From an uncultured Isosphaeraceae bacterium (GTDB taxonomy: Bacteria; Planctomycetota; Phycisphaerae; Phycisphaerales; SM1A02), in NCBI GenBank assembly GCA_964474235.1, contig CAYYRP010000010.1:4934-68933 (forward strand): a stretch of DNA of 64,000 nucleotides. Reading direction: 5' to 3'. Both the position numbers and the translations under genes were made by a program. Each line of letters opens with the position of its first letter. The first letter of the stretch is position 1. This document shows positions 2,869 to 35,556 of the stretch, piece by piece. The notes beneath the pieces were generated by a model. That model was not told where the DNA came from, did no database searches, and was given only the letters and a program-made list of their open reading frames with translations.

Positions 2869-2952
2869 CTCGGGGCAGAGGGTGCAACATCGGGTATTGA
2901 TGTGTGCACATACCGAGACCCGGGGTCAATGATGTCGAGGAACGACCCGCAA

Positions 2953-2994
2953 AAACAACCCGCGGGGTTGTTTATTTCGCGGGGTTGTTTATTT
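2953..2994. repeat. REP hairpin copy (2953..2973) followed by a 17-nt tandem duplication of its right arm (cgcggggttgtttattt x2, 2961..2994)
   Basis: The sequence aaacaacccgcggggttgttt is read directly. It lies between convergent rlmN and the 2989..4449 gene. The TAA stop of the latter (2989..2991) lies inside the duplicated arm. Confidence 0.85.
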
Positions 2995-6147: not shown

Positions 6148-6244
6148 ACGTTGCTCCTTTTTTATGTACGCACCCAATATGTAGGGCAGAAGTGTTTAAC
6201 GCATAGTGACATGAAATATATCAATTTTTTTACTTTTTATTCGT

Positions 6245-15623: not shown

Positions 15624-15677
15624 AAATAAAAAAACTCGCCCCACCAGTCATTTTGCGGATGAGAGTGGCGGGACGAG
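15624..15677 (-). terminator. rho-independent terminator after the giant gene
   Basis: The minus strand reads CTCGTCCCGCC...GGTGGGGCGAG (11 bp including 2 G-T pairs) followed by TTTTTTTATTTT. Confidence 0.55.
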
Positions 15678-15705
15678 CATAAAAACGTACTTTAATGTCG
15701 ATGAT

Positions 15706-18700
15706 CTAGTTCGGCAATTTCTCGAAATACAAGATCTTTGGCTTGTCTTGCGGGGTGTTTACCTCGCTACGATCGACGAGCATGACATAGCGTGAGTCAT
15801 CAATAATGTAGTCGAGATCGGTTGCATCCCAAACACCTGTTGCTGAATTTTTCCTGAACGTACGAATACGCATGTGCACAGTAAACACATCACTTGTAGT
15901 TGTGATCAAATTCGAAATACCCGCTTGTAACATATTTAGTTCTTCAGAGTCGCCACTTACACGATCACCAATTAAAGAATCTTCTTCGTAAATATCTACA
16001 GGAGCACCTTTGTCATCAACAACATTTCGTGAATTCACATCAGTGCTGATCGGCGCACCAACACCATCTGCAATCCAATTAGAATTAGAAGTGCCAAATT
16101 CAGAAAATGGTTCTAAGCCAGCATAATCAATACGCCATGCTGCAGGGCCTCGGATCGCTTGATGATTAGAACTGCTCCAAGGTTCAACAACGAACTCAGG
16201 TTTATACTCCGTTTCCATGGTGTCAAACGGTGATGCAGAGAGCATACCAATTTGCGATGGAGATGCAAACCCACGTGTTTCTTCAAGCATTGAGGCATTA
16301 CCGAGCCCTAAGCGCCACGAACGATCTGAATAATCAGGAGCACCAACAATGCCGGTCCCTACAATTTGATCTGCAAAACCGTTGCCATTTTCTCGCCATT
16401 GAAGGATAGATTCAGGAATAAGTGACCGCGGGTTCACATCTCCTGAAACGGCACCCCCACTATCGGATTGTTGCGTAGCGTGGACAATTTTGTTCATGTG
16501 TGGGAGCGCCCGCATCGCTTCAACTGTCGCTGTGTTAATGTTGATCATTCCCGGCGTAGATTTTCCTGTAAACCCATTCGCGTTATAAAAAGAGAACCAC
16601 TGCGTATCTGATGGTTGCAAATCTCCACCTAACCGACCTGGACCATCGCACACGAACGTATCAAGCACTCTGCCTGCAACTGACAAACGCGGCCATGGGT
16701 ACTCAGCAACACGATACGAACTGATCGAATCATCCCAACCTAGTTGCGTGCCACCTAGCATCATCGGCAATGTCATTTGTTGCGTGTCATTTGGATCAAG
16801 TGTATTCTCAAAATCCTCAACGCCTTGATTAAATCGGAGTCTATTCACGCGTGCATCAACATAGAATTCTGTGCGAGTTTCGTCAATATCTGCAGGACCA
16901 TCGAGATCATCTAAGGAAGAGAATCTAGCAATCCCCGTCAATGGTGCCCACCAATCCCAATCAGGATTTCCGTCACCATCTTCATCATCAGCAAGAAGAT
17001 CACCATCTTTATCAATAATTTTTGGGAACATAAATTCGCTAAATGTGACTTGTGTACCAGTGCTATGAATATCGCCTCCGTCGAGAGGGCCTCGGTTCAA
17101 ACTAAAAGTAACATCCGGTAGTGCTTGGTCAAAAAGTATATCGCTTTCAATCATGTGCCCAAAGAGCCAGCAGTTGAGCACTTCGCCAACCTGCTCAAAG
17201 TCGTCATCTTTTTGCAACATCTGCATCGAGAATGGAAATGCCATATCTCGCTCGGCTTCGCCCTCAACACCATCTCCGACTACGAAACCATCTTCATCAA
17301 GATCAGTATCTTCAAACAATGCTTCGTTTTCACCAATGCCGTCCGCAGCATCTGCATCAAAAGGATCAAATTCAAAATCTAGGAACGCAGGGTTAGCAGC
17401 AAAAGTTCCGTCCTCAGCATATTCGTGAGGTGCCCAAGTGCCATCAGTTGGGTCGTGAATCGCTTCCTTTCGAGATTGTCCATACCATCCCTTATCTGGG
17501 AATAGAGCATTCTCTTGATAGTTCATATCGAAGTACGTTGGTTTTCGATTCCTCAAGCCGCCAGCAATAAGCCCATCATTGATAATCTCGTTGTCTCCAC
17601 GGGGAGACCATGTTTCAACTGTAAACCATGGATCAGGATCATCGGCGACCATATCATCGTCGCCACTGTCTGGATTACCATCGCCGTTCATATCATCAGG
17701 ATCTTCGGGTGTTGCTAACTCCCATTTCCATTCAAACACGGAAGTGTGATCTATATTTGGATCTGTTTCGGCTGTATTCATAACAGGTAGCAGATCCAGT
17801 GATCGTATGTGATCACGAGCTGAGAACACAAATCGTGGATTACGTTCCCAGCTGTCATACGTACCATTGTGCCAACCGTACATGTCGGGTACATCTACGC
17901 CCCACGCTCTTGTAGCGCGATCCCACTGCACAAAGAGAACATCATGTGGATTATCAGGATCAGTTACAAGGATTTCAGTATCGATGAATCCATCATCTGC
18001 ATCATCGTCTTTGTCGACTTTATCCCACTCATCTTCCATATCATCAACGACACGTTTAGTAAAACTATTGAACTCATCCGGTCTGTCTAACCGGTCAATT
18101 AAAACCAGTTGGTCAACATCTGTCTTGTAAAGCGCGACTGCATGTTGCGCTTCATCAGAAAGTGCGTCATACCATTCACGCTGCGTACTCCAATCCCCTT
18201 CAGGAACTTCTGCAATGATAGAACCTGCCGCGCCTGCGGGATGATCAGCAACATCGAGGTCTAAGAAATCCAACCAATCAATTCTAAATTGCGGATTCGC
18301 AATTGGGGCAAATTCTTCTTTTGGAATTGTAATAGTTTCTTCATCTGTCATTGCATACAAGATTAACGTCGCAGGATTTTCTGGCGTTGACGGGTATAAA
18401 AATTGTTGGTTTGTTGAAACCAAGAAACTTAAATCTAGTCTCTGTCCAAAAAACTCAACTGTGTAATCTGAAAGGTCAATGACGCGATCAAACGGATTGG
18501 CGAGTTGCACAACGGCGACAGTTTCTTGCGGACATTCATCTGTGTCAGGAGTGACAAGATAAAACGGCTCACACGTTGTAGAAGTACACACAGTACCGTC
18601 GCCTTGATACGTACCATTGATCAAGCCACACGCGTCACCATCAACAACCATCAAACAACTTCCACTAGAGACGCAACACGAACCAAGTCCACAAGGGGAA

Positions 18701-21700
18701 GGGTCGCAATTCGTTCCATCACCCCAATATTGACCTTGCAAATCATTACAAGAAGTTTCATCAACTTCTTTGCATTGTCCTGTTGGCAAGCAACATGCCC
18801 CCACCTCGATAACACATTGGTTATCGCAATCGCTGCACAATGTGTCATCGCCCCAGTACTGAATGCCACCACTTGCAACACAAAATAGTTCAGTAACTTC
18901 CATACAACTAGAACTATCTAAACAACACGCTCCTACAATGCAATTGGTTGCATCACATAACGAATCATCGCCTTGATAGAATCCTGCAAGTAATAAACAG
19001 GATGGCTCTGTCACTTCGACACACTCCCCTATACCCAAACAGCATGCTCCATCAGGACGACCGGGGACACTCGCTCCGCCAACGCAACAGCAATGCCCAT
19101 CAACACACAGAGTTCCGTCTCCACTGTATTCACCGCCAAGTTCACTGCATGTAAATGGTGATACTTCAGTACATTCAAATGTAATAATGCAACATGCACC
19201 TTTTACACATGGACTTGTATCACACATCACCCCGTCACCTTGATACAGACCGCCAAGATCAACGCACGATGTTTGCGGAACATTCACACACGGTTCATCC
19301 GGAATACAACAAGCGCCTTCTATATTTGGAGTACATGGATCTCCTGCGCAAGTTGTAATGCCGTCCCAAACGCCGAGCATCAAGTCACATTGATCCTGTG
19401 TGATGTCTGCACATTCATCTGTGTTGAAGCAACATCGGCCAAGAATAAGAGGCGCTGGTGCGCACGATGCATTGTCACAATCAACGCCGTCCCCTTCATA
19501 CGAACTGAGGAGATCGTCGCACATAGCAAGTGTCATTTGTTCACACGTTCCATCAAGTAAGCAACACGCACCGACTGTACAAGGGGCAGCGCCACACGTG
19601 GTTCCATCGCCTTGATACGTCCCTGCTTTATCAATACATGCTTCTTCAGTGATTGTGACACAATAATTATCTTGAAGACAACAAGCACTTTCAATAACAT
19701 CAAGACATGGATCGGTACTGCAGAGTGTTCCATCACCTTGATAACTCCCAGCGAGATTGTCACACAAGTTTAATGGTGTCACTTCACACTCACCTGTTGG
19801 CAAACAACACGCGCCCGTATCGCAAATTCCTTCACAGCAACTCGTCGAATCGCCTTGGTATGTTCCTGCAATGAGTGCACATACAGATTGAGGAATTGTC
19901 ACACAACCTTCTAACCCCAGACAGCATGCGCCTTCAAAAACTGCAGGGCAATTTGAGTCAAAGCAAGTTGTATCTGAACCAATAAATGCTCCGCCAAGGT
20001 CCAGACAAGTAGAACTTCTTACAGTTTCGCAGAGTTGCAGATCGCTTATGCAGCAAGCTCCAACTTCTGATGAATCAGGAACATCTCCGCAGGTTCCCTC
20101 TACACAAGAACCACCATCGATTGAACCACCCAAGCTTAAACAAGTGCTAGATAAAATATTTTCACAGTTCCCATCGGGCAAACAACACGCTTGCGTGCTA
20201 CAAGAACCATCTTCACAGCTTGAGCTGATACCACCAAAGATGCCTGCTAAGTCATCGCATATATCTTCTGTAACTTCGTAACAAGCGCTTGCTAGGCAAC
20301 AGGCGCCCTCAAATACATCACAACATGGTTCACCCGAACATTCAGAACCATAGCCTTGGAACGAACCAAGCAAATCAGTTTCACAAATGTGCCGTGTAAT
20401 TTCTTCACAGAACAAAGCCTCATCATCACCAGCAGTAAAACAGCATGCGCCACCGCACTCGATTGCACCACACAAGACGCCATCAAAGTACGAGCCACCT
20501 ATATCATGGCATTCTGAGGAAGCAGTTTGCATATTATCTCCATTTGAATCCACAGTTGATGTCATGTTGATACAACTACCACTCCCAAGGCAACATGCGC
20601 CTGTTATGAGGCATGGAGCCTCTGCACAGAATGTTCCAGAATTGTATTCGCCTTCAAACACAGATTCGCAGTATTCTTCAGTCCACACATCCATACAATC
20701 ACCATTTGGTAAGCAGCAAGATCCAGTTGTACAAGCGATGCTTGCACAGTCCGTTGAGGCACCTAAATAATCACCGCCGAGTGTTACGCACTCTGCTTCA
20801 GAAAATACATCGATACAACTTCCACTTCCAAGGCAACAGGCGCCTGTCGAATTACACACCTCCTCTGTGCAATCTAGCCCGTCACCCCTATACACGCCAC
20901 CATACAACATACATGTTTCTTCGATCAGGGTTACACATGTGCTCGCCGGCAAACAACATGCACCAACCGTAGGATCTGTACATAAACCAACCGAACACGA
21001 AACGCCTTCCGTCCACTGTGTATCTTCCACAGGAACACCAGAAAGTTTTGTAAGTTGCTCACAGTGAACGAGAGAAATTTCAAGACATTCGCCAGTTGCA
21101 ATCAAACAACATGATCCAATGACTGCTGGCGATCCAGTACAGTCTGCACATGTAGTTGCCTCACCTTGATAAACACCTGAGAGCATTGTACAGAAACCTT
21201 CTGTCACTACTTCGCAACGGAATTCGCCAATACAACACGCTCCAATAGCACATGGTGCAGAATCGCAAAGTTCACCGTCCCCTTTGTACTCGCCACCCAT
21301 GTCATAACAGACCAGTGCGTCCACTTCAATACAAAAGCCAATTGGCAAATCAAGCGGATCCGACCCAGTTGGGATCTCAGGGATATGCGTAATACAACAT
21401 GCACCAGATCCACAAGGATCAGTTGAACACAAAACAGACAGCCCCGCAAAAGTACCGCCAACTGTTGCGCATTGCGCAGCCGTTAAATCTTCACATATTC
21501 CCGCAGTTGGCTGACCAGTTGGCGAATTATTTGCAATACAGCAGCCACCCAATGCAGGTGTTACCGCTCCGCCACAGGGGTCGGTGTCACAAAATATATC
21601 GTCACCTGAATATGTTCCACCAAGGGCAGTACAGACTACAAATGTGATATCAACACAATCAGTCCCCACACAACACCCTCCGCGAGGAGTACAAGTAACA

Positions 21701-24700
21701 GTATCGCATGTTGTCCCAGCACCTTGGAACGTACCGTATAGTTGTTCCTCGCACGTGCGTATCGAAACGTCTTCACATCCACCCTTTGGCAAACAACAGG
21801 CGCCAAAACATTCGATATCAGAGCAATTTTGACCCGCAAAATATGTACCGTCAAAGTTCAAGCAAGAATCTTCAGAGATATATACACAAGAGCCAGAATT
21901 AAGCGATGTACCAGCTGCAAGATCATCGTCTGTATCAAGACAACAAGCTCCGAATGCTCCGCCACTCCCGCCGCATGGATCTTCGGCACAAGTTACACCC
22001 AACTGATAGGTGCCACTGAGCTCAAAACAAGTGCTAATAGTTACATTTGTACACTGCCCACTGTCTAGGCAACACGCACCTCCACACGGATCATCAATAC
22101 AAAATCTTCCCAATTGAAACACGCCGCCAAAATCTAGACACGTGGTTTCGCCTGCTTCTCGTATATCAATACAACTTCCACTTAGCAAACAACATGCCCC
22201 TTCTGGAGTACACGGAAGAGAAACACAATCAGAATCTATACCTTTGTATTCACCGCCCATATCTGTACAACTCTCTTCTGAAAGTAATTCACAGCCGAGT
22301 AAATCATCTATATCAAGATCAAAACAGCATGCACCCCCACAAGAAATTTCACAACAGAGTTCACCATCATGATATTCACCACCAAGTGTAATGCAATGTT
22401 CTCTGGCGATTTCAATGCAATTTCCTGCCGGTAGACAACATGCCCAACATGAAACAAGTTCGGGGCAAGTCACATCGACACACAAAGAATCTGCATGGAA
22501 TTCTAAACCGCCAAGGAGCGAGAGGCATGTTTCTTCGGAAACTTCTTCGCAGATGGTTTCAGAATCACAACCCGATAAGCAACATGCGCCAAGTGGTTCT
22601 GGGACTTTTGCTTCATGGACGTGCGCAATGAATGTTTCAAGTATAAATGGCTGCGCTTCGAGCCCGAGCATTTGGACTGAACCACCTGCGTCGTTTGAAA
22701 AATTTGTTCCGATTATTGGTAGAGCATTCTGATCATGATCACGCTGCCTGCCAAGGACAGGAGGAGTCACTGCAGAACTCAAAGGCAAACTAGACCTTGC
22801 AAAGGACCCGTTTGGATTAAATGGCAACAGGGAATGATCTCGCCATGCGTCATCTGTATCTTTGTATGCCATCATATTAGAGGCGAGTCCTGCAGCCATT
22901 AACCTCGTTTGCTGATAGGGATCTTGTAAATCACCATTACTTTGGATGGACGTACCATCCATTTCTCCAGCAACTGTACGACCATATCCATTCCAAACTC
23001 CAGTTTCAGAACCGTCGAACATACTCGTAGTTCCTGATTCTTGAGAATCTGTCATTGCAAGCAATAGTGCCAAAGGGGCTCTTTCAGAAAATGTTAATGT
23101 GCCATCGGCGTAAGATTCCCACCATGGATCTCCAAATGCAAAAGTGCCAAAATATTCTCGCAAATCCACTTTGGTTGTTGCTTGTTCTCTCCACTTGTTT
23201 GCAACATCTAAGAATGCCTCTTGCTCTTGACCAGGAGGCGAATCAGATGCAGCTTGCACGGCTTCGTATACAACCTTGAGCGGGAACATTTGCCCCCAAA
23301 CATTTGTTGGTGCTGCGTAGGAATAGTATGCACTTATGTCTAAGGGATCACCATCATCACCACTTGGCAAATCACCCTCTGAGAGATCTGGGTCAAAGCG
23401 ATTGGCAAACCGATCTTCCCATCGAAGCCATGGTGGAAGCAGATCATTTCTTACACCACTAAACAAAGTCATCTTGCGTCGATTATCGAAAACAAGTTGC
23501 GAATTTGTGAGTTGATCACGCAGCTCACTTGCTTCGTGAGCTTTGGTGTAATCACTGCGAATGAATTGCTGACCTACATCGCCATTGGCATTCACTCTGT
23601 TAATACTATTTTCGAATCGGCTTCCAATAAATTGGTAGTTATTCCCCTCGTTAATTCTGAGTTCTATTTCATCAGAGAGGTTGTAGGGTCTAAATCCACG
23701 TCTCGCGTTGAGTGGATTTCTGCCTACGAGTTGCCAATACCAGCGGCGACCATACAGAGAAGTAATGTTATCCCATGGATCATTCAAATCAGCAAATGGA
23801 TTCGCAGTTGTATCGTAAAAAATATCATTCGAAGTCGAGCCACTGACCTGCGCTCCAACTTCATCAAGGATTGATGCATACTCTTGGTCTTGCCAACGGT
23901 CCGTATCCCAAGCCACGACAACTCTTGGGTCATTGGGGTCATCAAGTTCACCGTATGTGATCCAATCTGGTGCGTTAGCAGGTGTATCAAGAAAGCCTAC
24001 TTTCCAATTTGAATCTGTTTCGCTGTAGACATCGTTTTGTGCAACAAGAGCGATGTCGGCAGGTGTATGACCTCTAGTCCCTTCCCCGCCAAGGGCTACC
24101 ATCGGCTGACTCGTACTTGGCATCCCCTCGCCTCTTTGTGGCATTGATGCAGTAATGCCTGAGCTAGAAACATCAACACGATGAAACCGTGACCCAACGT
24201 TAAAATTTACTTTTCCAGAGTTATCAGTAATAGAAATACCAACAATTTGACGAATGTCCGAGCCTGCTTCATACGGTGACAAGTGCCAAATAGAATCTGT
24301 AAAGCCGTCGCCATCAGAGTCTGTCAGCGTTCGTTCTACCATCCACCGTGGAGTCCCATCTTCGAAGGCATCCATCGGCCGTTCACCCTGTTCATGCTGG
24401 ACCCCGTCATTATCTAGATCACTTAAATTCAAGAAGTTGATTGGTAGTAGTTCACTATTAGATTGTGCATTTACCCAGCCATCTAAACTGTACCAATTGT
24501 ACCAACGAGTCCAAAAGTCACCATTGTTATCTAATACATTGCCATCGCTAATTGGCAAATCAAAACCGAGCCCGACTTCGGCAGGCAGTTGCCCCCCAAC
24601 AGTTGGGCGCCACGAGGGCCACTGCTCAACTGGTACATCGAGATCTGTCATCACGCCATCGCCGCCAATATCTGAAATATTGCGTACAGGTCTCCATGCA

Positions 24701-25317
24701 TTCGTGCTTTGTGAGAGGTTCGTCAAATGACGCCAATGCGTAAAGGTGTCAGGTGTACCATCAACGTCATTCCACTCATCTGGGAGATCCTCAGTGGCAA
24801 CATCCACTCGTAAATCTGCTCGCTGTGGCTCCGTGTCACGCAGCCAACGTGCATCACCAAATGATGGACCACCAAGAGGATTATCAGGTCCGACGTTATC
24901 ATCAAAGAAACCACTGCCATTATCATCAACCCTATTGTAATCGTCTGGTGGATTCGTCCAAGGAATGACTGCGTATGGAGCAAAGTTATATGGATTATTT
25001 GGATCGTGCGTCCAACGAGTCTCACCAATATCTGGCAAACGTCTTCGATTATTTGCACTCCCTTGCGGAGCGCCACCTGTAGGAATTTCAGGTTTGACGA
25101 AAAGCGCAAGGGCAATATCATCTGCGATTGCTTGCCCAATAAACCTTGCACTGTTACTCCTCGCAGCCGCGATACGTTGTGCTTTTGCAGTCACACGCGT
25201 ACCTTGCGTGCGTGTCAAGAACGCTGTTGTGACGAGTACGAGAAGAACCAAAACACCAACAACTAAAATCAAAGCGTTTGCACGGCGAAGCGGATTGTGT
25301 ATTTGTTTCATGTTCAT
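15706..25317 (-). CDS. giant (3203 aa) GspK/PilX-like minor pseudopilin carrying an internal array of about 31 six-Cys repeats and multiple DxDxDG Ca-binding-like loops
   Basis: The start is set to the ATG at 25317 (MNMKQIHNPLRRANALILVVGVLVLLVLVTTAFL), which overlaps the upstream stop as TAATG. The N-terminal hydrophobic helix lacks the G-FTLIE/E5 motif, as in GspK. A C-terminal PGMININTATVEAMRALP motif (about 16528..16548) resembles the T2SSK NxNTA helix-hairpin-helix signature. The gene sits in the position after the J-like gene. Confidence 0.7.
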   Translation of the reverse strand: MNMKQIHNPLRRANALILVVGVLVLLVLVTTAFLTRTQGTRVTAKAQRIAAARSNSARFIGQAIADDIALALFVKPEIPTGGAPQGSANNRRRLPDIGETRWTHDPNNPYNFAPYAVIPWTNPPDDYNRVDDNGSGFFDDNVGPDNPLGGPSFGDARWLRDTEPQRADLRVDVATEDLPDEWNDVDGTPDTFTHWRHLTNLSQSTNAWRPVRNISDIGGDGVMTDLDVPVEQWPSWRPTVGGQLPAEVGLGFDLPISDGNVLDNNGDFWTRWYNWYSLDGWVNAQSNSELLPINFLNLSDLDNDGVQHEQGERPMDAFEDGTPRWMVERTLTDSDGDGFTDSIWHLSPYEAGSDIRQIVGISITDNSGKVNFNVGSRFHRVDVSSSGITASMPQRGEGMPSTSQPMVALGGEGTRGHTPADIALVAQNDVYSETDSNWKVGFLDTPANAPDWITYGELDDPNDPRVVVAWDTDRWQDQEYASILDEVGAQVSGSTSNDIFYDTTANPFADLNDPWDNITSLYGRRWYWQLVGRNPLNARRGFRPYNLSDEIELRINEGNNYQFIGSRFENSINRVNANGDVGQQFIRSDYTKAHEASELRDQLTNSQLVFDNRRKMTLFSGVRNDLLPPWLRWEDRFANRFDPDLSEGDLPSGDDGDPLDISAYYSYAAPTNVWGQMFPLKVVYEAVQAASDSPPGQEQEAFLDVANKWREQATTKVDLREYFGTFAFGDPWWESYADGTLTFSERAPLALLLAMTDSQESGTTSMFDGSETGVWNGYGRTVAGEMDGTSIQSNGDLQDPYQQTRLMAAGLASNMMAYKDTDDAWRDHSLLPFNPNGSFARSSLPLSSAVTPPVLGRQRDHDQNALPIIGTNFSNDAGGSVQMLGLEAQPFILETFIAHVHEAKVPEPLGACCLSGCDSETICEEVSEETCLSLLGGLEFHADSLCVDVTCPELVSCWACCLPAGNCIEIAREHCITLGGEYHDGELCCEISCGGACCFDLDIDDLLGCELLSEESCTDMGGEYKGIDSDCVSLPCTPEGACCLLSGSCIDIREAGETTCLDFGGVFQLGRFCIDDPCGGACCLDSGQCTNVTISTCFELSGTYQLGVTCAEDPCGGSGGAFGACCLDTDDDLAAGTSLNSGSCVYISEDSCLNFDGTYFAGQNCSDIECFGACCLPKGGCEDVSIRTCEEQLYGTFQGAGTTCDTVTCTPRGGCCVGTDCVDITFVVCTALGGTYSGDDIFCDTDPCGGAVTPALGGCCIANNSPTGQPTAGICEDLTAAQCATVGGTFAGLSVLCSTDPCGSGACCITHIPEIPTGSDPLDLPIGFCIEVDALVCYDMGGEYKGDGELCDSAPCAIGACCIGEFRCEVVTEGFCTMLSGVYQGEATTCADCTGSPAVIGSCCLIATGECLEISLVHCEQLTKLSGVPVEDTQWTEGVSCSVGLCTDPTVGACCLPASTCVTLIEETCMLYGGVYRGDGLDCTEEVCNSTGACCLGSGSCIDVFSEAECVTLGGDYLGASTDCASIACTTGSCCLPNGDCMDVWTEEYCESVFEGEYNSGTFCAEAPCLITGACCLGSGSCINMTSTVDSNGDNMQTASSECHDIGGSYFDGVLCGAIECGGACCFTAGDDEALFCEEITRHICETDLLGSFQGYGSECSGEPCCDVFEGACCLASACYEVTEDICDDLAGIFGGISSSCEDGSCSTQACCLPDGNCENILSSTCLSLGGSIDGGSCVEGTCGDVPDSSEVGACCISDLQLCETVRSSTCLDLGGAFIGSDTTCFDSNCPAVFEGACCLGLEGCVTIPQSVCALIAGTYQGDSTSCCEGICDTGACCLPTGECEVTPLNLCDNLAGSYQGDGTLCSTDPCLDVIESACCLQDNYCVTITEEACIDKAGTYQGDGTTCGAAPCTVGACCLLDGTCEQMTLAMCDDLLSSYEGDGVDCDNASCAPAPLILGRCCFNTDECADITQDQCDLMLGVWDGITTCAGDPCTPNIEGACCIPDEPCVNVPQTSCVDLGGLYQGDGVMCDTSPCVKGACCIITFECTEVSPFTCSELGGEYSGDGTLCVDGHCCCVGGASVPGRPDGACCLGIGECVEVTEPSCLLLAGFYQGDDSLCDATNCIVGACCLDSSSCMEVTELFCVASGGIQYWGDDTLCSDCDNQCVIEVGACCLPTGQCKEVDETSCNDLQGQYWGDGTNCDPSPCGLGSCCVSSGSCLMVVDGDACGLINGTYQGDGTVCTSTTCEPFYLVTPDTDECPQETVAVVQLANPFDRVIDLSDYTVEFFGQRLDLSFLVSTNQQFLYPSTPENPATLILYAMTDEETITIPKEEFAPIANPQFRIDWLDFLDLDVADHPAGAAGSIIAEVPEGDWSTQREWYDALSDEAQHAVALYKTDVDQLVLIDRLDRPDEFNSFTKRVVDDMEDEWDKVDKDDDADDGFIDTEILVTDPDNPHDVLFVQWDRATRAWGVDVPDMYGWHNGTYDSWERNPRFVFSARDHIRSLDLLPVMNTAETDPNIDHTSVFEWKWELATPEDPDDMNGDGNPDSGDDDMVADDPDPWFTVETWSPRGDNEIINDGLIAGGLRNRKPTYFDMNYQENALFPDKGWYGQSRKEAIHDPTDGTWAPHEYAEDGTFAANPAFLDFEFDPFDADAADGIGENEALFEDTDLDEDGFVVGDGVEGEAERDMAFPFSMQMLQKDDDFEQVGEVLNCWLFGHMIESDILFDQALPDVTFSLNRGPLDGGDIHSTGTQVTFSEFMFPKIIDKDGDLLADDEDGDGNPDWDWWAPLTGIARFSSLDDLDGPADIDETRTEFYVDARVNRLRFNQGVEDFENTLDPNDTQQMTLPMMLGGTQLGWDDSISSYRVAEYPWPRLSVAGRVLDTFVCDGPGRLGGDLQPSDTQWFSFYNANGFTGKSTPGMININTATVEAMRALPHMNKIVHATQQSDSGGAVSGDVNPRSLIPESILQWRENGNGFADQIVGTGIVGAPDYSDRSWRLGLGNASMLEETRGFASPSQIGMLSASPFDTMETEYKPEFVVEPWSSSNHQAIRGPAAWRIDYAGLEPFSEFGTSNSNWIADGVGAPISTDVNSRNVVDDKGAPVDIYEEDSLIGDRVSGDSEELNMLQAGISNLITTTSDVFTVHMRIRTFRKNSATGVWDATDLDYIIDDSRYVMLVDRSEVNTPQDKPKILYFEKLPN
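18571..22590 (-). repeat. coding tandem array of about 31 diverged units of about 43 aa (CC-x5-C-x7-C-x12-C-x5-C) inside the giant gene
   Basis: Counted by eye in the translation. Units start G-A-C-C-[LFIV], for example GACCLPTGECEVTPLNLCDNLAGSYQGDGTLCSTDPC. The first GACC codons are at 22590 and the last Cys codon is at 18571..18573. Confidence 0.85.
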
Positions 25318-27110
25318 TATTCGCGCTCCGGTATATTGACGACAAATTGATATGTCCACCCAGCACCAAGTCGATTATCTGGATCTTGTAATCGAAGCGT
25401 TACCTTAATAGCCGTTGGTCTTGGGGTGTATCGCCACACGACATTACCTGCCTGATCACCGTTGTCCCACCCACCATCTTCTACTGCTCCATCATCTACA
25501 TTCGGATTCGCAGAATATTCATTCACAAAATCTAAACCATTTTCGAGAAATGGATCTGCGTTGTTATATCCAAAGATCGCCCAATATTCATTCACGCCAT
25601 CATCGTCTATCCCCTCAACAGTGGGAACGGGTGCGAGGGAGGAGCCCTCACCATCCACGAAAGTTCGCTCTATAAACCAAGGGTCAATCGACCACGCTGC
25701 AATGTCTGCAAATTCCGCATCATCGTCTGCAATATCTGTATCGTGGGTTGCAAACGGGTCATCTTGGGTGTGTATCCCATCCCAAGGATTACCTGTCGCT
25801 TGATTATAAAAATCTTGGAGTGTAGAGAACTCAATTGAGTAATCATATTCATCATCTCGTGTGGAACCACCCCACCACGGTTGCTGCCACTGATTTGCAT
25901 AATTAAAGCCAGGAAACCACTGCCCGCTTGTATCAATTGCTTCACCAACACCCTCGTCATACGTCCATTCAACTTGAAACGTGACGCACCCTTGCGCAAT
26001 TGCTGCAACTCGCATCGCCTGATCTGCCCTGTCCAACGTTGGTGGAATTGGTTCTACTCTCGGCCAATACATAAGACTTGCAATCAGTTCTTGTTGATCT
26101 ACATTGTCGGGAACTTGATTCGTGTTTCCTAAAAATGCTCCCTGCCAGACACGATCTTCAGAAGAACTAGACCCTTCTTCCCACTGAAGAACGGATTCGC
26201 GAATATCCGCTAAGTGGGTTGCAGCAGTGTCCACTCTGCTGTGCTGGATTTGAGGAATAGTTTCACCTGCTTCGACACGTGGGTCCCATGGAAATATACT
26301 GCGTGCAGCAAGCGCGCCAGGAGAATAGGTGCCAGACGAAAGGTAAATCGTCTTACTTGTATCTCGTGGAGAATTATCATCATCATCTGCGAGGACAACA
26401 AGTTGCCTGCATAAAATCCAATCGGTTGGGTTTGGCTGCGTGCCCCCTGCAAAACCGCCTTCGCCATCAACGATATCAAATCGTTCAGCTTGACCATCAG
26501 AATAGATTCTTGATTGAAAAGAGACCATTCCCTCGTACCATGGGGTAACCACTTGCTGCGTGCTAGAAGGAAAGAGAACGGGATCCGCCGATTGGTTCGA
26601 CGTAGGCGTGCCATATTCATCCTCAGCAATACCGTCTAATCGAGGAAACTGCAGCCCATGTCCGTAATACACCATCGCAGAACATCCTTGTCCTGCAAAA
26701 TTAGTGCCGCCATTTGTCCCTGGTGAAGCACCATTAAAAACCATTGGGCTCGCGACAGCTTCGGTGAGGAAAATCAATTGGTCACATCGCACAATTGCAG
26801 AAGCATCTTGCGAAGGATCTAAGAGGTCGTATTCACTACGGACGTTATTCGCAACAGCAACACTTCGAATTGCAAAGAACCCTTCTGGAGAAATCTTTGC
26901 AATATCTTCTCGCAATTGTTGTTCGATAGCAATAGCCTGCTGAAGCGTACTCGTTGTAGCGGCACCAATAGCAGCAACCTTGCTCGTCACGCTAAATATT
27001 CTTGAAACTGCAATCATAATTGCTAGTAGTACGACGATTGAAACCATAAGTTCCATTAACGTGAACCCAACTCGTAAACTATTTCTGAACCTTTCAAGAA
27101 CAGTAGACAT
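25317..27110 (-). CDS. prepilin-type N-terminal domain protein, GspJ/PilW-like position (597 aa)
   Basis: N-terminus MSTVLERFRNSLRVG-FTLMELMVSIVVLLAIM (class III signal with E5). It lies between the I-like and K-like genes. Confidence 0.7.
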   Translation of the reverse strand: MSTVLERFRNSLRVGFTLMELMVSIVVLLAIMIAVSRIFSVTSKVAAIGAATTSTLQQAIAIEQQLREDIAKISPEGFFAIRSVAVANNVRSEYDLLDPSQDASAIVRCDQLIFLTEAVASPMVFNGASPGTNGGTNFAGQGCSAMVYYGHGLQFPRLDGIAEDEYGTPTSNQSADPVLFPSSTQQVVTPWYEGMVSFQSRIYSDGQAERFDIVDGEGGFAGGTQPNPTDWILCRQLVVLADDDDNSPRDTSKTIYLSSGTYSPGALAARSIFPWDPRVEAGETIPQIQHSRVDTAATHLADIRESVLQWEEGSSSSEDRVWQGAFLGNTNQVPDNVDQQELIASLMYWPRVEPIPPTLDRADQAMRVAAIAQGCVTFQVEWTYDEGVGEAIDTSGQWFPGFNYANQWQQPWWGGSTRDDEYDYSIEFSTLQDFYNQATGNPWDGIHTQDDPFATHDTDIADDDAEFADIAAWSIDPWFIERTFVDGEGSSLAPVPTVEGIDDDGVNEYWAIFGYNNADPFLENGLDFVNEYSANPNVDDGAVEDGGWDNGDQAGNVVWRYTPRPTAIKVTLRLQDPDNRLGAGWTYQFVVNIPERE

Positions 27111-28336
27111 TAGAGTTCCTCCACCATTGCAAATATAGGGACAATTGTACGATTCAAGGAATCACTTGTTGGCAAATACCAAATATCTGTGACAACACCT
27201 TCTTCTACCATGCCCCCAAAAGAACCTGTTGGGATAACGGGCGGATTTTGCAGTGCGCCTTCCCACCAATTCACATTCGTTGGAGCGGCCACACTTGCAT
27301 CATTTACTGAAGGAGAGACCATCACACTTGCTGGAGCTGAGATGAGTTTCACTTCTTCATCCGAGAGTCTTCTTCGACCTCGCTGTACTCGGTGGATGTG
27401 TCCATTTTGATCCACAATCCACTGGCCCACTGCTTGCCAATGGTTGTTCGGTTCGTTTGGATTGTCTGCATCTGTTCCTGCAAGAACATTCGTTGTTGCA
27501 TCCCATGATCCAGTAGAACTATCAATAAGAGAACGATAAAACGGTAACTGCGGTGTTTGCCAATTCGTAGTGTCTACTATGTATGGTCCTGTTTCATTTG
27601 AATCAACAATTCTATACACGAATATTGCGACAAGAATTCTTTGTTCATACCTGCGGAACATACAGTCCCAATAATATTTACCGCCATCACGAGAAGTAGG
27701 ATCATATCCTTCAAGCGTATTTACTCGTGGATCACCATCCCACATTGGGTATTGACGTTCAGAAGCAGTTATACGGATTACAGGGGGGCGATCGGCAAGC
27801 GGGTTCCCTGAGTCATCGATTTCATTTGGAAATTTTTCTTTGTTATAAGGGATTCCTGGGACGTCAGTTGATGAAGCCCATCGCTCTGCTATATGGTCGG
27901 AATCAGGGTAACCAAAAATGTCTATTGCGCCACGCAATGTCACATCAACTGGGTTTGAAGCATCGCCAAATCCTGAAGGAATAAAAGCAGGACGACGCCA
28001 CATCCAATCGCCACAAATTGTTCTCCAATGATTTGAATTACCACTTGGAGTACCAACATTAAAATCGCATAAATCTGGTGACCAATTAATAGGATCAAAC
28101 ACTTCGCAATATCCGAAATCATCTGGCTTAAGTTTGGAACGAAGCAACGTCATTGCATTGTTTGCAACAATAGGACCAAGAAGATCATCGGCGGCACGTT
28201 GTTGTTGCCGAATCCCCGCAGGCAAGAGTGCCGCGATGCTAATAATTCCAATGCCAAGAATAAAAATGGCGAGCAACAGTTCGATCAAAGAAAAACCTTG
28301 TGGTTTACGGTTAATTATTTTTCTAGGACGAATCAT
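27110..28336 (-). CDS. prepilin-type N-terminal domain protein, GspI/PilV-like (408 aa)
   Basis: N-terminus MIRPRKIINRKPQG-FSLIELLLAIFILGIGIISIAALLP, which resembles PilV/GspI leaders. Its stop shares base 27110 with the ATG of the J-like gene. Confidence 0.7.
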   Translation of the reverse strand: MIRPRKIINRKPQGFSLIELLLAIFILGIGIISIAALLPAGIRQQQRAADDLLGPIVANNAMTLLRSKLKPDDFGYCEVFDPINWSPDLCDFNVGTPSGNSNHWRTICGDWMWRRPAFIPSGFGDASNPVDVTLRGAIDIFGYPDSDHIAERWASSTDVPGIPYNKEKFPNEIDDSGNPLADRPPVIRITASERQYPMWDGDPRVNTLEGYDPTSRDGGKYYWDCMFRRYEQRILVAIFVYRIVDSNETGPYIVDTTNWQTPQLPFYRSLIDSSTGSWDATTNVLAGTDADNPNEPNNHWQAVGQWIVDQNGHIHRVQRGRRRLSDEEVKLISAPASVMVSPSVNDASVAAPTNVNWWEGALQNPPVIPTGSFGGMVEEGVVTDIWYLPTSDSLNRTIVPIFAMVEEL

Positions 28337-29268
28337 TTTTCAGGAACCCCGCTATACCTATTAAATTGAATTCGATCTGTTGTGTTATTTATAAAATCGG
28401 TAAAATGCCAATCACGGTCGTACTTGTCAACAGTACCGTTGCTAGGATTACGTTCCCAATCCGATCGTGCAATATCTGTAAAGTTTGGGTAGTTAGTTCG
28501 AGTAGCGCCCCATTTTTCACGGAAAGCATCATAGTCAAAAATTGAAAGCAAATTAGCTAGCCCAATGTAGGTCTCACTTTCAGGAGCCTCCACATCAAAA
28601 TAGGCTCCACTAGGAAGGTCGTTAACAGGTTGTGTCCAATCAACAAAAATAGGATCAAATTCATCATCGTTTCGTAATGCAAGATCGATAGTTTGAATTC
28701 CATCTCTATCGAAATCAACCCAGATACGATCGCTACCACTTTCAGAGTTACGTACTACTACGCGACCTTCAGGGTTATAAAGAATGCCAACCATTTCGCC
28801 CATCAACGATATATTTTTGACAACTGCATTTGATGGCAAGTACGTACATACCCACCAAATATGATCTGCATTCAATGCAATTCCAGGTGCAGCTACGCCA
28901 ATTCCAATTGGGAGATTTTTTGGTTTCTGCCCATCGATAGGAACAAAGCGGTCGTATGTCCAATCACCAGCGTTCTGCGAATCACCAAACCACTCTGCTA
29001 CCACGCATTCGTAATACTGCTCACTGCCATCACCTGATAACTTAGGTCGAAAAACTGTAATCACATATCGATTGTTTTTTATTGCAAACGCGCGAGCGTT
29101 ATCGAGAGCTGCGATGATCGTGTTCTTCGCAGTTGAAAGTCGCATATTTTTCGCAACTTTGACATACGCCATGGCAGAAAAACCTGCGATTATCGCAATA
29201 ATAATAATCACAACGACTAATTCAACAAGCGTAAAACCACGCTTCAGATTGGACGGCATTCTACTCAA
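28333..29268 (-). CDS. prepilin-type N-terminal domain protein, GspH/FimU-like (311 aa)
   Basis: N-terminus MSRMPSNLKRG-FTLVELVVVIIIIAIIAGF, followed by ...LDNARAFAIKNNRYVITVF as in the GspH family. ATGA overlaps occur at both ends. Confidence 0.7.
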   Translation of the reverse strand: MSRMPSNLKRGFTLVELVVVIIIIAIIAGFSAMAYVKVAKNMRLSTAKNTIIAALDNARAFAIKNNRYVITVFRPKLSGDGSEQYYECVVAEWFGDSQNAGDWTYDRFVPIDGQKPKNLPIGIGVAAPGIALNADHIWWVCTYLPSNAVVKNISLMGEMVGILYNPEGRVVVRNSESGSDRIWVDFDRDGIQTIDLALRNDDEFDPIFVDWTQPVNDLPSGAYFDVEAPESETYIGLANLLSIFDYDAFREKWGATRTNYPNFTDIARSDWERNPSNGTVDKYDRDWHFTDFINNTTDRIQFNRYSGVPEK

Positions 29269-32438: not shown

Positions 32439-32456
32439 GTGTCAGGCTCCAATTCA

Positions 32457-34262: not shown

Positions 34263-34320
34263 TGTTTTCTTACTCCGTAGACACCCATTGCGTTCGGGTA
34301 CCTGCCACTACACTTTTATG

Positions 34321-34349
34321 ATCATTGGATGTTAAACATCCTTTGACAA
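34321..34349 (-). promoter_or_regulatory. candidate internal sigma70-like promoter in the 170-nt pilT-gspE gap
   Basis: The minus strand reads TTGTCA-N17-AATGAT. A weak hairpin (AGTACA..TGTACT) plus a T-run lies just after the pilT stop. This is sequence pattern only. Confidence 0.25.
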
Positions 34350-34432
34350 CTGCAATAGGAGTGCTTTTTACATTTGCCACCTAGATTATTCACTTAACCT
34401 CTCGAAAAATCAAGTACAAAGTTGTCCTGTAC

Positions 34433-35536: not shown

Positions 35537-35556
35537 ATATGTAGGTTCCGTCCGTA

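What the first reader, a model, noticed from the sequence alone, without database searches (positions are those of the whole stretch)
15706..25317. 3203-aa GspK-like tip pseudopilin with a 1340-residue disulfide-rich repeat stalk inserted
The ORF occupies the GspK slot and starts by TAATG overlap with the J-like gene. Its N-terminus RRANALILVVGVLVLLVLVTTAFL is a pilin-like helix without the G-F-T-L-I-E consensus, as in GspK. About 280 aa from the C-terminus it carries PGMININTATVEAMRALP, which matches the NxNTA helix-hairpin-helix signature I associate with the T2SSK family. The tail ends ...SDVFTVHMRIRT...RYVMLVDRS. Between these GspK-like ends lie large acidic regions with many DxDxDG-type loops (TDSDGDGFTDS, DLDNDGV, DMNGDGNPDSGDDD, DKDGDLLADDEDGDGNPDWD) and about 31 six-Cys repeats. 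If GspK caps the filament as in the T2SS, this protein would display a very long Ca-binding, disulfide-bonded module at the filament tip. That would be an adhesin or capture device built into a minor pilin. I do not know of a described precedent of this size.
Basis: partly seen in the sequence, partly recalled or inferred. Interest (0 to 1): 0.9.

Follow-up and report, generated by a model that had tools for sequence, protein, structure and literature searches.

The report
Giant pilus-tip subunit with cysteine-repeat loop
An uninterrupted 3203-residue gene in a marine Phycisphaerae bacterium most likely encodes the tip subunit of a retractable type IV pilus, and a 1340-residue loop of 31 disulfide-rich modules has been inserted into its already oversized head, making it an extreme but recognisable version of a "modular pilin".

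Summary
Window 15706-25317 (-) is one intact 3203-aa ORF that overlaps the upstream pilin gene by TAATG. It carries 31 diverged six-Cys modules (aa ~906-2250).

- **Position and N-terminus:** the gene sits in the K slot of a PilB/PilT/PilC/pilin operon. Its N-terminal pilin-type helix lacks Glu5.
- **GspK similarity:** four GspK-like motifs occur in GspK order. GspK and XcpX are the best structural matches. T2SSK is the only Pfam family hit by several members other than FG-GAP. Every one of these signals is below significance.
- **Family:** it belongs to an unannotated Phycisphaerae family of 1400-3200-aa K-slot proteins, about 270 clusters at 50% identity. The family is distantly related to TIGR02600 (Verru_Chthon cassette protein A).
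- **Scaffold:** only the extreme ends look GspK-like. The other roughly 1850 non-repeat residues form a conserved acidic family-specific head.
- **Insert:** the Cys array sits in one variable loop of that head. A syntenic ortholog has no array, and other orthologs have about 18, 25 or 30 units. The array is therefore a closed loop, not a stalk carrying a distal domain.
- **Module:** the same module occurs in more than 440 other secreted or anchored planctomycete proteins.
- **Machine:** the operon encodes PilT, so it is type IVa-pilus-like rather than a T2SS.

Verdict: a new variant of a known kind. Interest 0.55.

The parts
15706..25317 (-). 3203-aa K-slot giant minor-pilin-like gene. Alternative starts are GTG 25359 and ATG 25311.
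25093..25287 (-). N-terminal pilin-type segment (aa 11-75). It has RRA|NALILVV with no Glu at +5, followed by a long alpha-1 helix (model helix 13-70).
24184..24321 (-). Family-invariant DSDGDGFTD calcium-loop-type motif (aa 333-341), followed by the beta-hairpin IRQIVGISITDNSGKVNFNVG. The hairpin aligns weakly to the first NLN motif of GspK.
18568..22602 (-). Inserted array of 31 six-Cys modules (aa ~906-2250). It is acidic (pI ~4, K+R 1.3%, Cys 14.4%).
22603..22671 (-). Conserved N-side flank of the insertion site (LGLEAQPFILETFIAHV, aa ~883-900).
18463..18567 (-). Conserved C-side flank of the insertion site (ETVAVVQLANPFDRVIDLSDY, aa ~2264-2285).
16501..16554 (-). PGMININTATVEAMRALP helix-hairpin-helix motif (aa 2922-2939). 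It aligns to the GspK INvNTa..lLaAL motif.
15709..15948 (-). Most conserved part of the family. It comprises a C-terminal helix plus three long beta-strands (aa ~3124-3203; SDVFTVHMRIRTF, RYVMLVDRS, KILYFEKLPN). These are the proposed pilin-sheet and tip-complex strands.
15634..15678 (-). Hairpin plus U7 intrinsic terminator that closes the operon after the giant gene.
25317..27110 (-). 597-aa J-slot minor pilin (GFTLMEL).
27110..28336 (-). 408-aa PilV/GspI-like minor pilin.
28333..29268 (-). 311-aa minor pilin resembling GspH and Verru_Chthon cassette protein D.
29265..31135 (-). Two further pilins (238 aa and 385 aa, GspG-like N-termini).
31143..37296 (-). PilC/GspF platform protein, a PilB/GspE-like ATPase, a PilT-family ATPase and a second PilB/GspE-like ATPase.

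Best explanation
**What it is.** The ORF encodes the apical subunit (GspK/PilX/PilK class) of a retractile type IVa-pilus-like filament in an uncultured marine Phycisphaerae bacterium.

**How it most likely works (inferred).**
1. The N-terminal Glu5-less helix and the highly conserved C-terminal helix-plus-three-strand unit come together to form the pilin-like module.
2. That module seats the protein on top of the H/I/J-slot minor pilins and primes the filament.
3. All the sequence between these ends projects from the tip as a very large acidic head, conserved across a Phycisphaerae family of 1400-3200-aa proteins.
4. The head carries at least one invariant DxDxDGxxD calcium-loop-type motif.

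**The insert (shown).** In this lineage one variable surface loop of the head has been expanded by 31 tandem, diverged, six-Cys mini-domains. Each has a beta-hairpin, a short helix and a strand. The same module is widely used in secreted and surface-anchored planctomycete proteins. Both ends of the array re-enter the head within a loop's distance.

**Consequence (inferred).** The array forms a long, flexible, disulfide-stabilised closed loop at the pilus tip rather than a stalk. It most likely acts as a multivalent contact or capture surface. PilT-driven retraction would then pull the cell towards the bound target, or the target towards the cell.

**Shown versus inferred.** Shown: ORF integrity, operon context, family membership, the insertion site and its length polymorphism, and the fold class and spread of the module. 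Inferred: incorporation at the filament tip, calcium binding, disulfide formation and adhesive function.
For: **Context**
- Gene order is PilB-like, PilT (443.9 bits against a cut-off of 319.1), PilB-like, PilC/GspF, five Glu5 pilins, then this gene, then a terminator.
- The same synteny holds around orthologs P0007 and L004.

**GspK class**
- The family N-terminal consensus is RRGN(T/A)xVLV..ILVLLVIIATAF, with no Glu5.
- A GspK HMM scores all 103 relatives above every one of 412 shuffled or reversed decoys: median 6.5 and maximum 25.8 bits, against a decoy maximum of 1.4.
- Using only the last 420 aa, 87 of 103 relatives beat all 618 decoys. The hits map to GspK HMM positions 213-231 (helix-hairpin-helix) or 264-297 (C-terminal strand).
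- hhalign gives probability 61-62%, E about 8e-5, for the helix-hairpin-helix region.
- Foldseek's top hit is 3ci0_K, with XcpX chains at ranks 5, 15 and 16.
- T2SSK is the only Pfam family hit by several members other than FG-GAP: 7 of 25, and 5 of 30 with best E 0.0024.
- TIGR02600 hits 16 of 25 members (best 1.7e-5) and NF037980 T2SS_GspK hits one (0.003).
- The fused-ends model has pTM 0.79, a 58-residue N-terminal helix and three long C-terminal strands.

**Insertion**
- The array aligns cleanly as an insert between conserved flanks.
- The insert-free loop is about 30-50 aa.
- The same profile position 730 holds 0, about 710-810, about 1300-1335 or about 1400 inserted residues in different orthologs.

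**Module**
- The six-unit model has pLDDT 87 but pTM 0.47, which indicates well-defined units without a fixed arrangement relative to one another.
- 447 other proteins carry the module, many with a signal peptide and a dockerin-like, IPTL-CTERM or other C-terminal anchor.

**Design precedent:** PMC13533445 and PMC8179133.
Against: - No single homology or fold test for GspK is statistically significant. The window protein itself hits neither Pfam T2SSK nor NCBIfam GspK.
- The helix-hairpin-helix motif is a common motif, and N-terminal hydrophobic helices match one another easily.
- The residue before the putative prepilin cleavage site is Ala here (RRA|N), where most relatives have Gly.
- No secretin, PilMNOP or prepilin peptidase gene lies in the window.
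- A head of about 1850 aa plus a 1345-aa array is much bulkier than any tip protein known to pass a secretin.
- The contacts between N- and C-terminal parts in the model could not be inspected. Only summary confidence values were available.
- No expression or localisation data exist.
Confidence: 0.65

Rival explanations
1. It is a membrane-anchored giant surface or periplasmic adhesin that is merely co-transcribed with pilins. In this view the N-terminal helix is an uncleaved signal anchor, the protein is never built into a filament, and the GspK-like motifs are coincidental or vestigial.
For: - All GspK similarity is sub-threshold.
- The residue at -1 is Ala instead of Gly.
- The protein is very large.
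- The Cys module is otherwise typical of ordinary secreted or anchored surface proteins, including the neighbouring 414-aa gene.
Against: - The K-slot position is strictly conserved and is translationally coupled (TAATG) to the J-slot pilin, both here and in orthologs.
- The N-terminus is a conserved RRGNxxVLV pilin-like motif, not a generic anchor.
- The strongest conservation lies at the extreme C-terminus, as expected for a tip-complex strand.
- The GspK motifs are collinear.
- No other K-type, Glu5-less subunit is encoded in the cassette.
Confidence: 0.2
2. It is the tip of a non-extruded T2SS-type pseudopilus. The giant head and Cys loop stay in the periplasm and act as a piston face or substrate-docking platform for secretion, not as an external adhesin.
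For: - The pilins give their best, sub-threshold hits to GspG, GspH and GspI models, and the F protein scores similarly for GspF and PilC.
- The bulk of the head argues against passage through a secretin.
- The periplasm is where disulfides form.
Against: - A PilT/PilU-family ATPase scoring above the curated cut-off sits inside the operon, together with two PilB-type ATPases carrying MshE-type c-di-GMP motifs. This is the signature of dynamic type IVa/MSHA-like pili and is not found in T2SS operons.
- No GspC, GspL, GspM or GspD genes lie nearby.
- The Cys module is otherwise found in extracellular, anchor-bearing proteins.
Confidence: 0.1
3. The long ORF is an assembly chimera, a collapsed repeat or a pseudogene.
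For: Repeat-rich genes are prone to misassembly, and one related MAG contig ends inside the gene.
Against: - There is no DNA-level tandem repeat, and units are only about 37% identical.
- Five independent assemblies give intact 3158-3225-aa orthologs at 74-83% identity with the same architecture.
- The conserved flanks are in frame.
Confidence: 0.03

Closest known systems
GspK / XcpX (T2SS) and PilX / PilK (T4aP) apical minor pilins (Pfam PF03934/PF21687; PDB 3CI0, 5VTM, 6UTU)
   Same: - It is the last gene of the H-I-J-K minor-pilin cassette.
- It has a pilin-type N-terminal helix without Glu5.
- An extra domain is inserted inside the pilin module.
- Two N-x-N(T) motifs and a C-terminal S-x-x-F-x-V strand occur in the same order.
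- The C-terminal strand is supplied in cis, as in systems that lack PilY1/PilC (PMC13533445).
   Different: - It is about ten times longer: 3203 aa against about 330 aa.
- The roughly 110-180-aa alpha-domain of GspK is replaced by about 2800 aa.
- It scores below every curated threshold.
- The structural match is not significant (E=0.39).
- The residue at -1 is Ala.
Verru_Chthon cassette protein A (NCBIfam/TIGRFAM TIGR02600, profile length 1296), with cassette proteins B, C and D
   Same: - It is a very large PVC-superphylum protein that follows several prepilin-type proteins.
- The C-terminal ~55-60 aa align to model positions 1202-1258.
- 16 of 25 family members give hits, best 1.7e-5.
- The 311-aa neighbour hits cassette protein D at 9e-10.
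   Different: - All scores are far below the cut-offs (13.5 bits against 332 for this protein).
- Only the C-terminal part aligns.
- The lineage differs (Phycisphaerae, not Verrucomicrobia).
- The TIGR02600 model did not match the Cys-array region of this protein; its only aligned stretch is aa 3133-3187.
Modular pilins and pilin-like tip adhesins (S. sanguinis PilB/PilC, ETEC CofB, Thermus ComZ, Caulobacter CpaL)
   Same: A functional module is grafted onto or into a tip-located pilin. ComZ and GspK carry the module inside the beta-sheet. CpaL has an N-terminal pilin-like domain, a large middle region and a C-terminal strand that returns to the pilin sheet (PMC8179133, PMC13533445).
   Different: - Size: the largest modular pilin in the InterPro survey of PMC8179133 was 860 aa, and CpaL is about 600 aa.
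- There are two nested levels of insertion here: a roughly 1500-aa head, and within it a 1345-aa repeat loop.
- No class III signal-peptide (N_methyl) signature was detected.
PilY1 / PilC tip adhesins
   Same: A large tip-associated, calcium-loop-bearing adhesin would be functionally equivalent. The invariant DxDxDGxxD loop recalls, from memory, the PilY1 calcium site. No separate PilY1 gene is present in the operon.
   Different: PilY1 is not a pilin and attaches in trans by a C-terminal strand. No PilY1 or Neisseria_PilC family hit was obtained.
Six-Cys repeat proteins of Planctomycetota, including proteins annotated as 'GC-type dockerin domain-anchored' and 'choice-of-anchor E'
   Same: They carry the same 38-54-aa module (GACC...C...C...GG.YQGDGT.C....C), and 447 proteins were found. 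One of them is the 414-aa gene immediately downstream.
   Different: Those proteins are small (about 140-425 aa among the 120 listed) with 2-9 modules, a normal signal peptide and a C-terminal anchor. Here 31 modules are embedded in a loop of a pilin-like protein.

Membership tests
GspK/PilX/PilK apical minor pilin | Encoded last in the minor-pilin cassette, after H-, I- and J-type pilins | tested here: met
   The order is 311 aa (GspH/cassette-D-like), 408 aa (PilV/GspI-like), 597 aa, then this gene with a TAATG overlap. The same order holds around P0007.
GspK/PilX/PilK apical minor pilin | Pilin-type hydrophobic N-terminal helix that lacks Glu at +5 | tested here: met
   RRA|NALILVV has Leu at +5. 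The family consensus is RRGNTxVLV. All five upstream pilins have Glu5. The model helix spans residues 13-70.
GspK/PilX/PilK apical minor pilin | Gly at -1 of the prepilin peptidase site, and actual cleavage | tested here: inconclusive
   This protein and its closest orthologs have Ala at -1, while most relatives have Gly. Cleavage cannot be tested here, and no peptidase gene is in the window.
GspK/PilX/PilK apical minor pilin | Score above the curated thresholds of Pfam T2SSK (PF03934/PF21687) or NCBIfam NF037980 | tested here: not met
   The window protein gets no hit. Relatives give only sub-threshold hits: 7 of 25 with best E 0.02, 5 of 30 with best E 0.0024, and NF037980 in 1 of 25 at 0.003.
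GspK/PilX/PilK apical minor pilin | Helix-hairpin-helix (I-N-x-N-T-A) insert-domain motif and C-terminal strand in GspK order | tested here: met
   hhalign gives probability 61-62%, E about 8e-5, at GspK positions 150-252. GspK-HMM hits map to positions 213-231 and 264-297 and exceed all decoys in 87 of 103 relatives. This is a motif-level match only.
GspK/PilX/PilK apical minor pilin | Fold similarity to solved GspK/XcpX structures | tested here: inconclusive
   3ci0_K is the top Foldseek hit, and 6utu_C, 5vtm_X and 9a1f_T rank 5, 15 and 16. However E is 0.39-3.3 and TM-scores are low. The model has pLDDT 66.8 and pTM 0.79.
GspK/PilX/PilK apical minor pilin | Forms the tip complex with the I and J subunits and caps the filament | not testable with these tools
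   No multimer prediction or experiment was available.
Verru_Chthon cassette protein A (TIGR02600) | Score above the curated cut-off (332.3 bits) over the 1296-position model | tested here: not met
   The score is 13.5 bits, E=0.012, over aa 3133-3187 only. 16 of 25 relatives give sub-threshold hits, best 1.7e-5.
Verru_Chthon cassette protein A (TIGR02600) | Accompanied by cassette proteins B, C and D with prepilin-type N-termini | tested here: inconclusive
   The neighbours hit D (9e-10, 38.9 bits against a cut-off of 70), B (0.046) and C (0.014). All are below the cut-offs and the matches lie mostly in the N-terminal helix.
Modular type IV pilins (sensu PMC8179133) | [quoted passage not shown] | tested here: not met
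   Pfam N_methyl and TIGR02532 are not detected in this protein, although they are detected in the upstream pilins. GspK-type subunits typically lack this motif as well.
Modular type IV pilins (sensu PMC8179133) | A module not specific to pilus biology is grafted onto or into the pilin | tested here: met
   The six-Cys module also occurs in 447 non-pilin secreted proteins. It is absent from ortholog P0007 at the same site.
Type IVa pilus machinery (operon context) | PilT/PilU retraction ATPase together with a PilB-type ATPase and a PilC platform protein | tested here: met
   TIGR01420 scores 443.9 bits against a cut-off of 319.1. PilB models score 598-614 bits against 675.65 and PilC/GspF about 385 bits, slightly below their cut-offs.
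Type IVa pilus machinery (operon context) | Secretin, PilMNOP and prepilin peptidase | tested here: not met
   None was found in the 64-kb window. They may lie elsewhere in the genome.

The most novel reading that the evidence does not exclude
The tip of a retractile pilus carries a closed loop of 31 disulfide-locked acidic mini-domains, perhaps a few tens of nanometres long. In this reading the loop is a dedicated multivalent capture device, for example for cations, mineral or polysaccharide particles, or other cells. Its length would be tuned between closely related strains (0, ~18, ~25 or ~31 units). The same module on dockerin-anchored surface proteins, including the adjacent gene, would belong to one shared recognition system. 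Together with the roughly 1500-aa conserved head, this would define a previously unrecognised class of giant tip complexes in Phycisphaerae. It would also raise the question of how such a complex crosses the outer membrane.
Probability: 0.2. Interest if true: 0.8.

Novelty: new variant of a known kind. Interest (0 to 1): 0.55.

Why it matters
- **Size limit.** If the protein really caps a pilus, the known size range of pilin-family subunits grows several-fold. The previous range was about 330 aa for GspK, about 600 aa for CpaL and 860 aa for the largest modular pilin in a database survey.
- **Design rule.** The arrangement of an N-terminal helix, an arbitrary cargo and a returning C-terminal strand would tolerate nearly 3000 inserted residues at two nested levels.
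- **Export problem.** It poses a concrete mechanical question: how does a tip complex of about 340 kDa, built with oversized H, I and J partners, get through the envelope?
- **Natural experiment.** Orthologs at one locus carry 0, about 18, about 25 or about 31 modules in the same loop. This could be used to ask what the array does.
- **Annotation gaps.** Two widespread planctomycete sequence families have no Pfam or NCBIfam model that reaches threshold. One is the giant K-slot family, about 270 clusters at 50% identity. The other is the six-Cys module, found in more than 440 proteins.
- **Limits.** All of this rests on metagenome-assembled sequence from uncultured bacteria, so function remains inferred.

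Tried and rejected
- **Pfam and NCBIfam on the whole protein and on four segments.** Nothing significant was found. The only hits were HHH_3 at E=0.28 on the NINTA motif and TIGR02600 at E=0.012.
- **phmmer and a family-profile hmmsearch against PDB sequences.** There were no meaningful hits.
- **Structure prediction with fused sub-sequences of the homologs.** It was accepted once only the first row was fused.
- **Foldseek of the fused-ends model.** GspK came top but was not significant.
- **hhalign of the family against 37 GspK sequences.** Both 18- and 204-sequence family profiles gave only the N-terminal helix and the helix-hairpin-helix region, at probability 45-62%. Adding sequences did not improve the result.
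- **Foldseek of the six-repeat model.** There was no significant fold match. The best was the ADAM17 cysteine-rich/disintegrin region at E=0.39, so the module stays unclassified.
- **Representative-library search with the C-terminal 344 aa.** This gave the family size, but the 150 listed hits are all family members. It provided no bridge to canonical GspK.
- **Literature searches.** No paper was found on TIGR02600 / Verru_Chthon, or on giant pilins in Phycisphaerae.
- **Assembly artefact.** Considered and rejected.
- **Recent duplication or exchange with the neighbouring 414-aa repeat gene.** Considered and rejected. Units are about 33% identical between the two genes and about 37% identical within each.
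- **The generic terminator scan.** It missed the terminator after the ORF because of its long loop. Direct folding shows it.
Full report
**1. The observation**

Window 15706..25359 on the minus strand is one open frame. From the ATG at 25317 it encodes 3203 aa. That ATG shares its A with the TAA of the upstream 597-aa pilin gene (…GAATAATGAAC…), and a GGAG lies 8 nt upstream.

The protein has 197 Cys, and only three lie outside aa 912-2262. The 35 CC pairs reduce to 31 units of 37-54 aa with six Cys each, once four CC pairs internal to a unit are discounted. The unit consensus is GACCxxxGxCxxxxxxxCxxxGGxYxGxGxxCxxxxC.

The ORF is not an assembly product. Tandem Repeats Finder sees no tandem repeat in the DNA. 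Units are on average 37% identical and at most 56%. Intact orthologs of 3158, 3221, 3219 and 3225 aa, 74-83% identical, occur in other assemblies. One related MAG contig does stop inside the gene.

**2. Context**

On the same strand, upstream, the operon encodes in order:
- a PilB/GspE-like ATPase (35557-37296);
- a PilT/PilU-family ATPase (34433-35536), scoring 443.9 bits against a curated cut-off of 319.1;
- a second PilB/GspE-like ATPase (32457-34262); both PilB-like proteins carry MshE-type c-di-GMP motifs;
- a PilC/GspF platform protein (31143-32438);
- five pilins with a canonical G/A-F-T/S-L-x-E N-terminus: 385 aa, 238 aa, 311 aa (GspH/cassette-D-like), 408 aa (PilV/GspI-like) and 597 aa.

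The giant gene follows. It is closed by a strong hairpin plus U7 (ΔG -25.4 kcal/mol, z = -4.1). This is a type IVa-pilus-like operon with a retraction ATPase, not a classical T2SS. No GspC, GspL, GspM, secretin or prepilin peptidase gene is in the window.

All minor pilins are two to three times larger than their canonical counterparts.

**3. The protein belongs to a family, and the Cys block is an insertion**

*The family.* I searched with the two non-repeat parts fused (aa 1-905 plus 2251-3203). This returned 103 proteins. Every one that carries an organism name comes from a metagenome-assembled genome, nearly all Phycisphaerae or other Planctomycetota, with one labelled Gemmatimonadetes. 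Almost all are annotated as hypothetical, and they range from about 1400 to 3200 aa. An exhaustive search with the last 344 aa found 271 clusters at 50% identity with E ≤ 1e-3. The match was at the very C-terminus of long proteins in all but a few of the listed hits.

*An insert-free ortholog.* P0007 (1857 aa) covers 100% of the fused query at 46% identity, has no Cys repeats, and sits in the same syntenic locus: E/F genes, five pilins, the K-slot gene, then uppS and purA.

*The insertion site.* In an alignment with 25 insert-free relatives, aa ~906-2250 align to nothing. The block falls exactly between two conserved segments, LGLEAQPFILETFIAHV and ETVAVVQLANPFDRVIDLSDY. In relatives the loop between these segments is about 30-50 aa. 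The same profile position (730) holds different insert lengths in different orthologs:

| Insert at profile position 730 | Approximate units | Example proteins |
|---|---|---|
| none | 0 | P0007 |
| ~710-810 aa | 17-19 | P0005, P0006, P0011-P0016 |
| ~1300-1335 aa | ~30 | P0001-P0004 and this protein |
| ~1400 aa | 21-25 | P0008-P0010 |

More distant long members carry 60-230-aa non-Cys inserts at this position.

*Consequences.* The array is a lineage-specific, length-polymorphic insertion into one variable loop. Its two ends must come back together, so it is a closed loop rather than a stalk with a distal cargo.

**4. Is it GspK-like?**

*Supporting signals*
- It occupies the K slot.
- Its N-terminus is RRA|NALILVV…, with family consensus RRGN(T/A)xVLV..ILVLLVIIATAF. 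[quoted passage not shown]
- A GspK HMM built from 37 diverse GspK sequences scored all 103 relatives above every shuffled or reversed decoy.
- With only the last 420 aa, 87 of 103 relatives exceeded all 618 decoys. The hits mapped to GspK positions 213-231 (I-N-x-N-T-A helix-hairpin-helix) or 264-297 (C-terminal strand).
- hhalign aligned TPGLININTAPxEVLRAL to GspK's INvNTa..lLaAL with probability 61-62% and E about 8e-5. Weaker collinear alignments paired VAVSIVDNSAMLNANVAT with GspK's i.D.q.cFNLNaLa, and SNLITTRSDVFTVYFKVRS with l.v.S.yF.v.
- An AlphaFold2 model of aa 1-640 plus 2860-3203, built with 32 homologs, has pLDDT 66.8 and pTM 0.79. It shows a 58-residue N-terminal helix, a hairpin at 342-378, and a C-terminal helix followed by three long strands.
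- Foldseek against the PDB placed GspK (3ci0_K) first and XcpX chains at ranks 5, 15 and 16.
- T2SSK is the only Pfam family hit by several members other than FG-GAP (7 of 25, and 5 of 30 with best E 0.0024).
- TIGR02600, Verru_Chthon cassette protein A, hits 16 of 25 relatives (best 1.7e-5). It also hits the window protein's aa 3133-3187 at E = 0.012.

*Against*
- None of these signals reaches a curated or conventional significance threshold. The Foldseek E-value is 0.39.
- The window protein itself has no Pfam hit.
- PDB sequence searches are empty.
- The residue before the putative cleavage site is Ala here.

*Reading.* I take the gene to be the K-class apical subunit of this system. Membership of the GspK family in the strict, model-defined sense is not established.

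**5. What lies between the GspK-like ends**

Only the first ~75 aa, the hairpin near 355-378 and the last ~340 aa resemble GspK. The remaining conserved scaffold spans aa ~80-900 and 2251-2860. It is family-specific, strongly acidic (pI ~4.0-4.4, 14-20% D+E) and matches no model.

The protein contains three canonical DxDxDGxxD loops, at 333, 2542 and 2778. The first, DSDGDGFTD, is invariant across the family and lies just before the conserved hairpin. FG-GAP-type hits appear in 4 of 25 relatives (3 to FG-GAP_3, 1 to FG-GAP). Calcium binding is a reasonable inference but is untested.

In effect, the alpha-domain position of GspK is occupied by a head of about 1500 aa in the family. In this lineage the head itself carries the 1345-aa array.

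**6. The Cys module**

A six-unit segment modelled with 63 homologs gives pLDDT 87 but pTM 0.47. Each unit has a beta-hairpin, a short helix and a strand, and neighbouring units have no fixed mutual orientation. Foldseek finds no significant PDB match; the best is the ADAM17 cysteine-rich/disintegrin region at E = 0.39. Pfam and NCBIfam have no model for it.

The module is nevertheless common. 447 proteins match at E ≤ 1e-3, and those that carry an organism name are almost all from Phycisphaerae, other Planctomycetota or Candidatus Eisenbacteria. Most listed proteins have a signal peptide, 2-9 units and a C-terminal anchor or tag, such as a GC-type dockerin-like tail, IPTL-CTERM, or a recurrent …TWGxIKxxYR tail.

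The gene immediately downstream of the giant ORF (14258-15502, minus strand) is one of these. It has a signal peptide, nine units and the tail CDGDVNGDGIVNVDDILIVIAAWGPC. It is absent from the syntenic loci of P0007 and of the 3225-aa ortholog. Its units are no closer to the giant's units (33%) than the giant's units are to one another (37%), so a recent transfer between the two genes is unlikely.

Many of these proteins consist only of the repeats and an anchor. The repeats are therefore probably functional surfaces in their own right and not just spacers.

**7. Mechanism proposed**

Inferred steps:
1. After membrane insertion, and possibly prepilin processing, the Glu5-less helix and the C-terminal strands form the pilin-like module.
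2. That module nucleates the tip complex with the J-, I- and H-slot subunits. This follows the cis C-terminal-strand arrangement described for GspK, ComGG and CpaL (PMC13533445).
3. PilB-driven polymerisation pushes the complex outward, and the acidic head with its 31-unit disulfide-bonded loop is exposed at the tip.
4. The loop makes multivalent contacts, and PilT-driven retraction transmits force.

Shown: the sequence architecture, the operon, the insertion polymorphism, and the fold class and spread of the module.

Not shown: tip location, export, Ca2+ binding, disulfide bonding, and the ligand.

The main physical objection is size. About 340 kDa at the tip, plus oversized partners, must cross the outer membrane.

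**8. Comparison and novelty**

Modular pilins are a recognised and widespread design. The largest in the InterPro survey of PMC8179133 was 860 aa. That paper describes GspK and ComZ as pilins with a domain inserted into the sheet. CpaL (~600 aa) has a middle adhesin region and a C-terminal strand that returns to the pilin sheet (PMC13533445). Very large K-slot proteins in the PVC superphylum already have a curated model, TIGR02600.

The present case is therefore a new, extreme variant of a known kind and not a new kind of system. What is new:
- the unannotated Phycisphaerae family of giant K-slot proteins;
- the nested insertion of a 31-unit six-Cys array at a polymorphic loop;
- the overall size.

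I found no paper describing this family, the module or TIGR02600.

**9. Verdict**

- Observation: confirmed.
- Interpretation: partly supported.
- Confidence that this is the apical K-class subunit of a type IVa-pilus-like filament carrying an inserted repeat loop: about 0.65.
- Rivals: an anchored adhesin that is not in the filament (0.2), a periplasmic pseudopilus cap (0.1), and an artefact (0.03).
- Interest: 0.55.

Noticed in passing
window 14258-15502 (-): A 414-aa secreted protein made of a signal peptide, nine copies of the same six-Cys module and a GC-type dockerin-like tail (CDGDVNGDGIVNVDDILIVIAAWGPC). It lies directly downstream of the giant gene, beyond that gene's terminator hairpin. 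It is absent from the syntenic loci of the insert-free ortholog (L001) and of a 3225-aa ortholog (L004). It has no Pfam or NCBIfam hit.
   Followed up: partly
window 25317-29268 (-): The H-, I- and J-slot minor pilins are all two to three times larger than canonical ones (311, 408 and 597 aa). The whole tip complex, not only the K subunit, appears to be enlarged.
   Followed up: no
window 32457-37296 (-): One operon holds two PilB/GspE-like ATPases, each with an MshE-type c-di-GMP-binding N-terminal motif, flanking a PilT/PilU-family ATPase. This points to c-di-GMP-controlled extension and to retraction.
   Followed up: partly
window 15634-15678 (-): A strong hairpin (ΔG -25.4 kcal/mol, z = -4.1) followed by U7 lies just after the giant ORF's stop codon. 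The generic terminator scan missed it because of its long loop.
   Followed up: yes
proteins P0104-P0223 (other metagenomes): Many small proteins carrying the six-Cys module end in a recurrent C-terminal tail, ...(S/T)WGxIKxxYR. Others end in dockerin-like or IPTL-CTERM tails. The WGxIKxxYR tail looks like an unrecognised sorting or anchoring signal.
   Followed up: no
window 44313-45062 (-): An IS200-like Y1 transposase (Pfam Y1_Tnp, 2.8e-12) lies among housekeeping genes.
   Followed up: no
window 4519-6177 (-): A 552-aa protein with a signal-like N-terminus, Gly/Arg-rich ends and a long, charged, Glu/Arg/Gln-rich central region. It has no family hit.
   Followed up: no
L011 (JABHZL010000112.1, Phycisphaerae bacterium SI047_bin83), positions 1-126: A contig from a probably conspecific MAG (98% identity over the last 42 aa) ends inside the giant gene. 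Some short-read assemblies therefore break in this gene.
   Followed up: no
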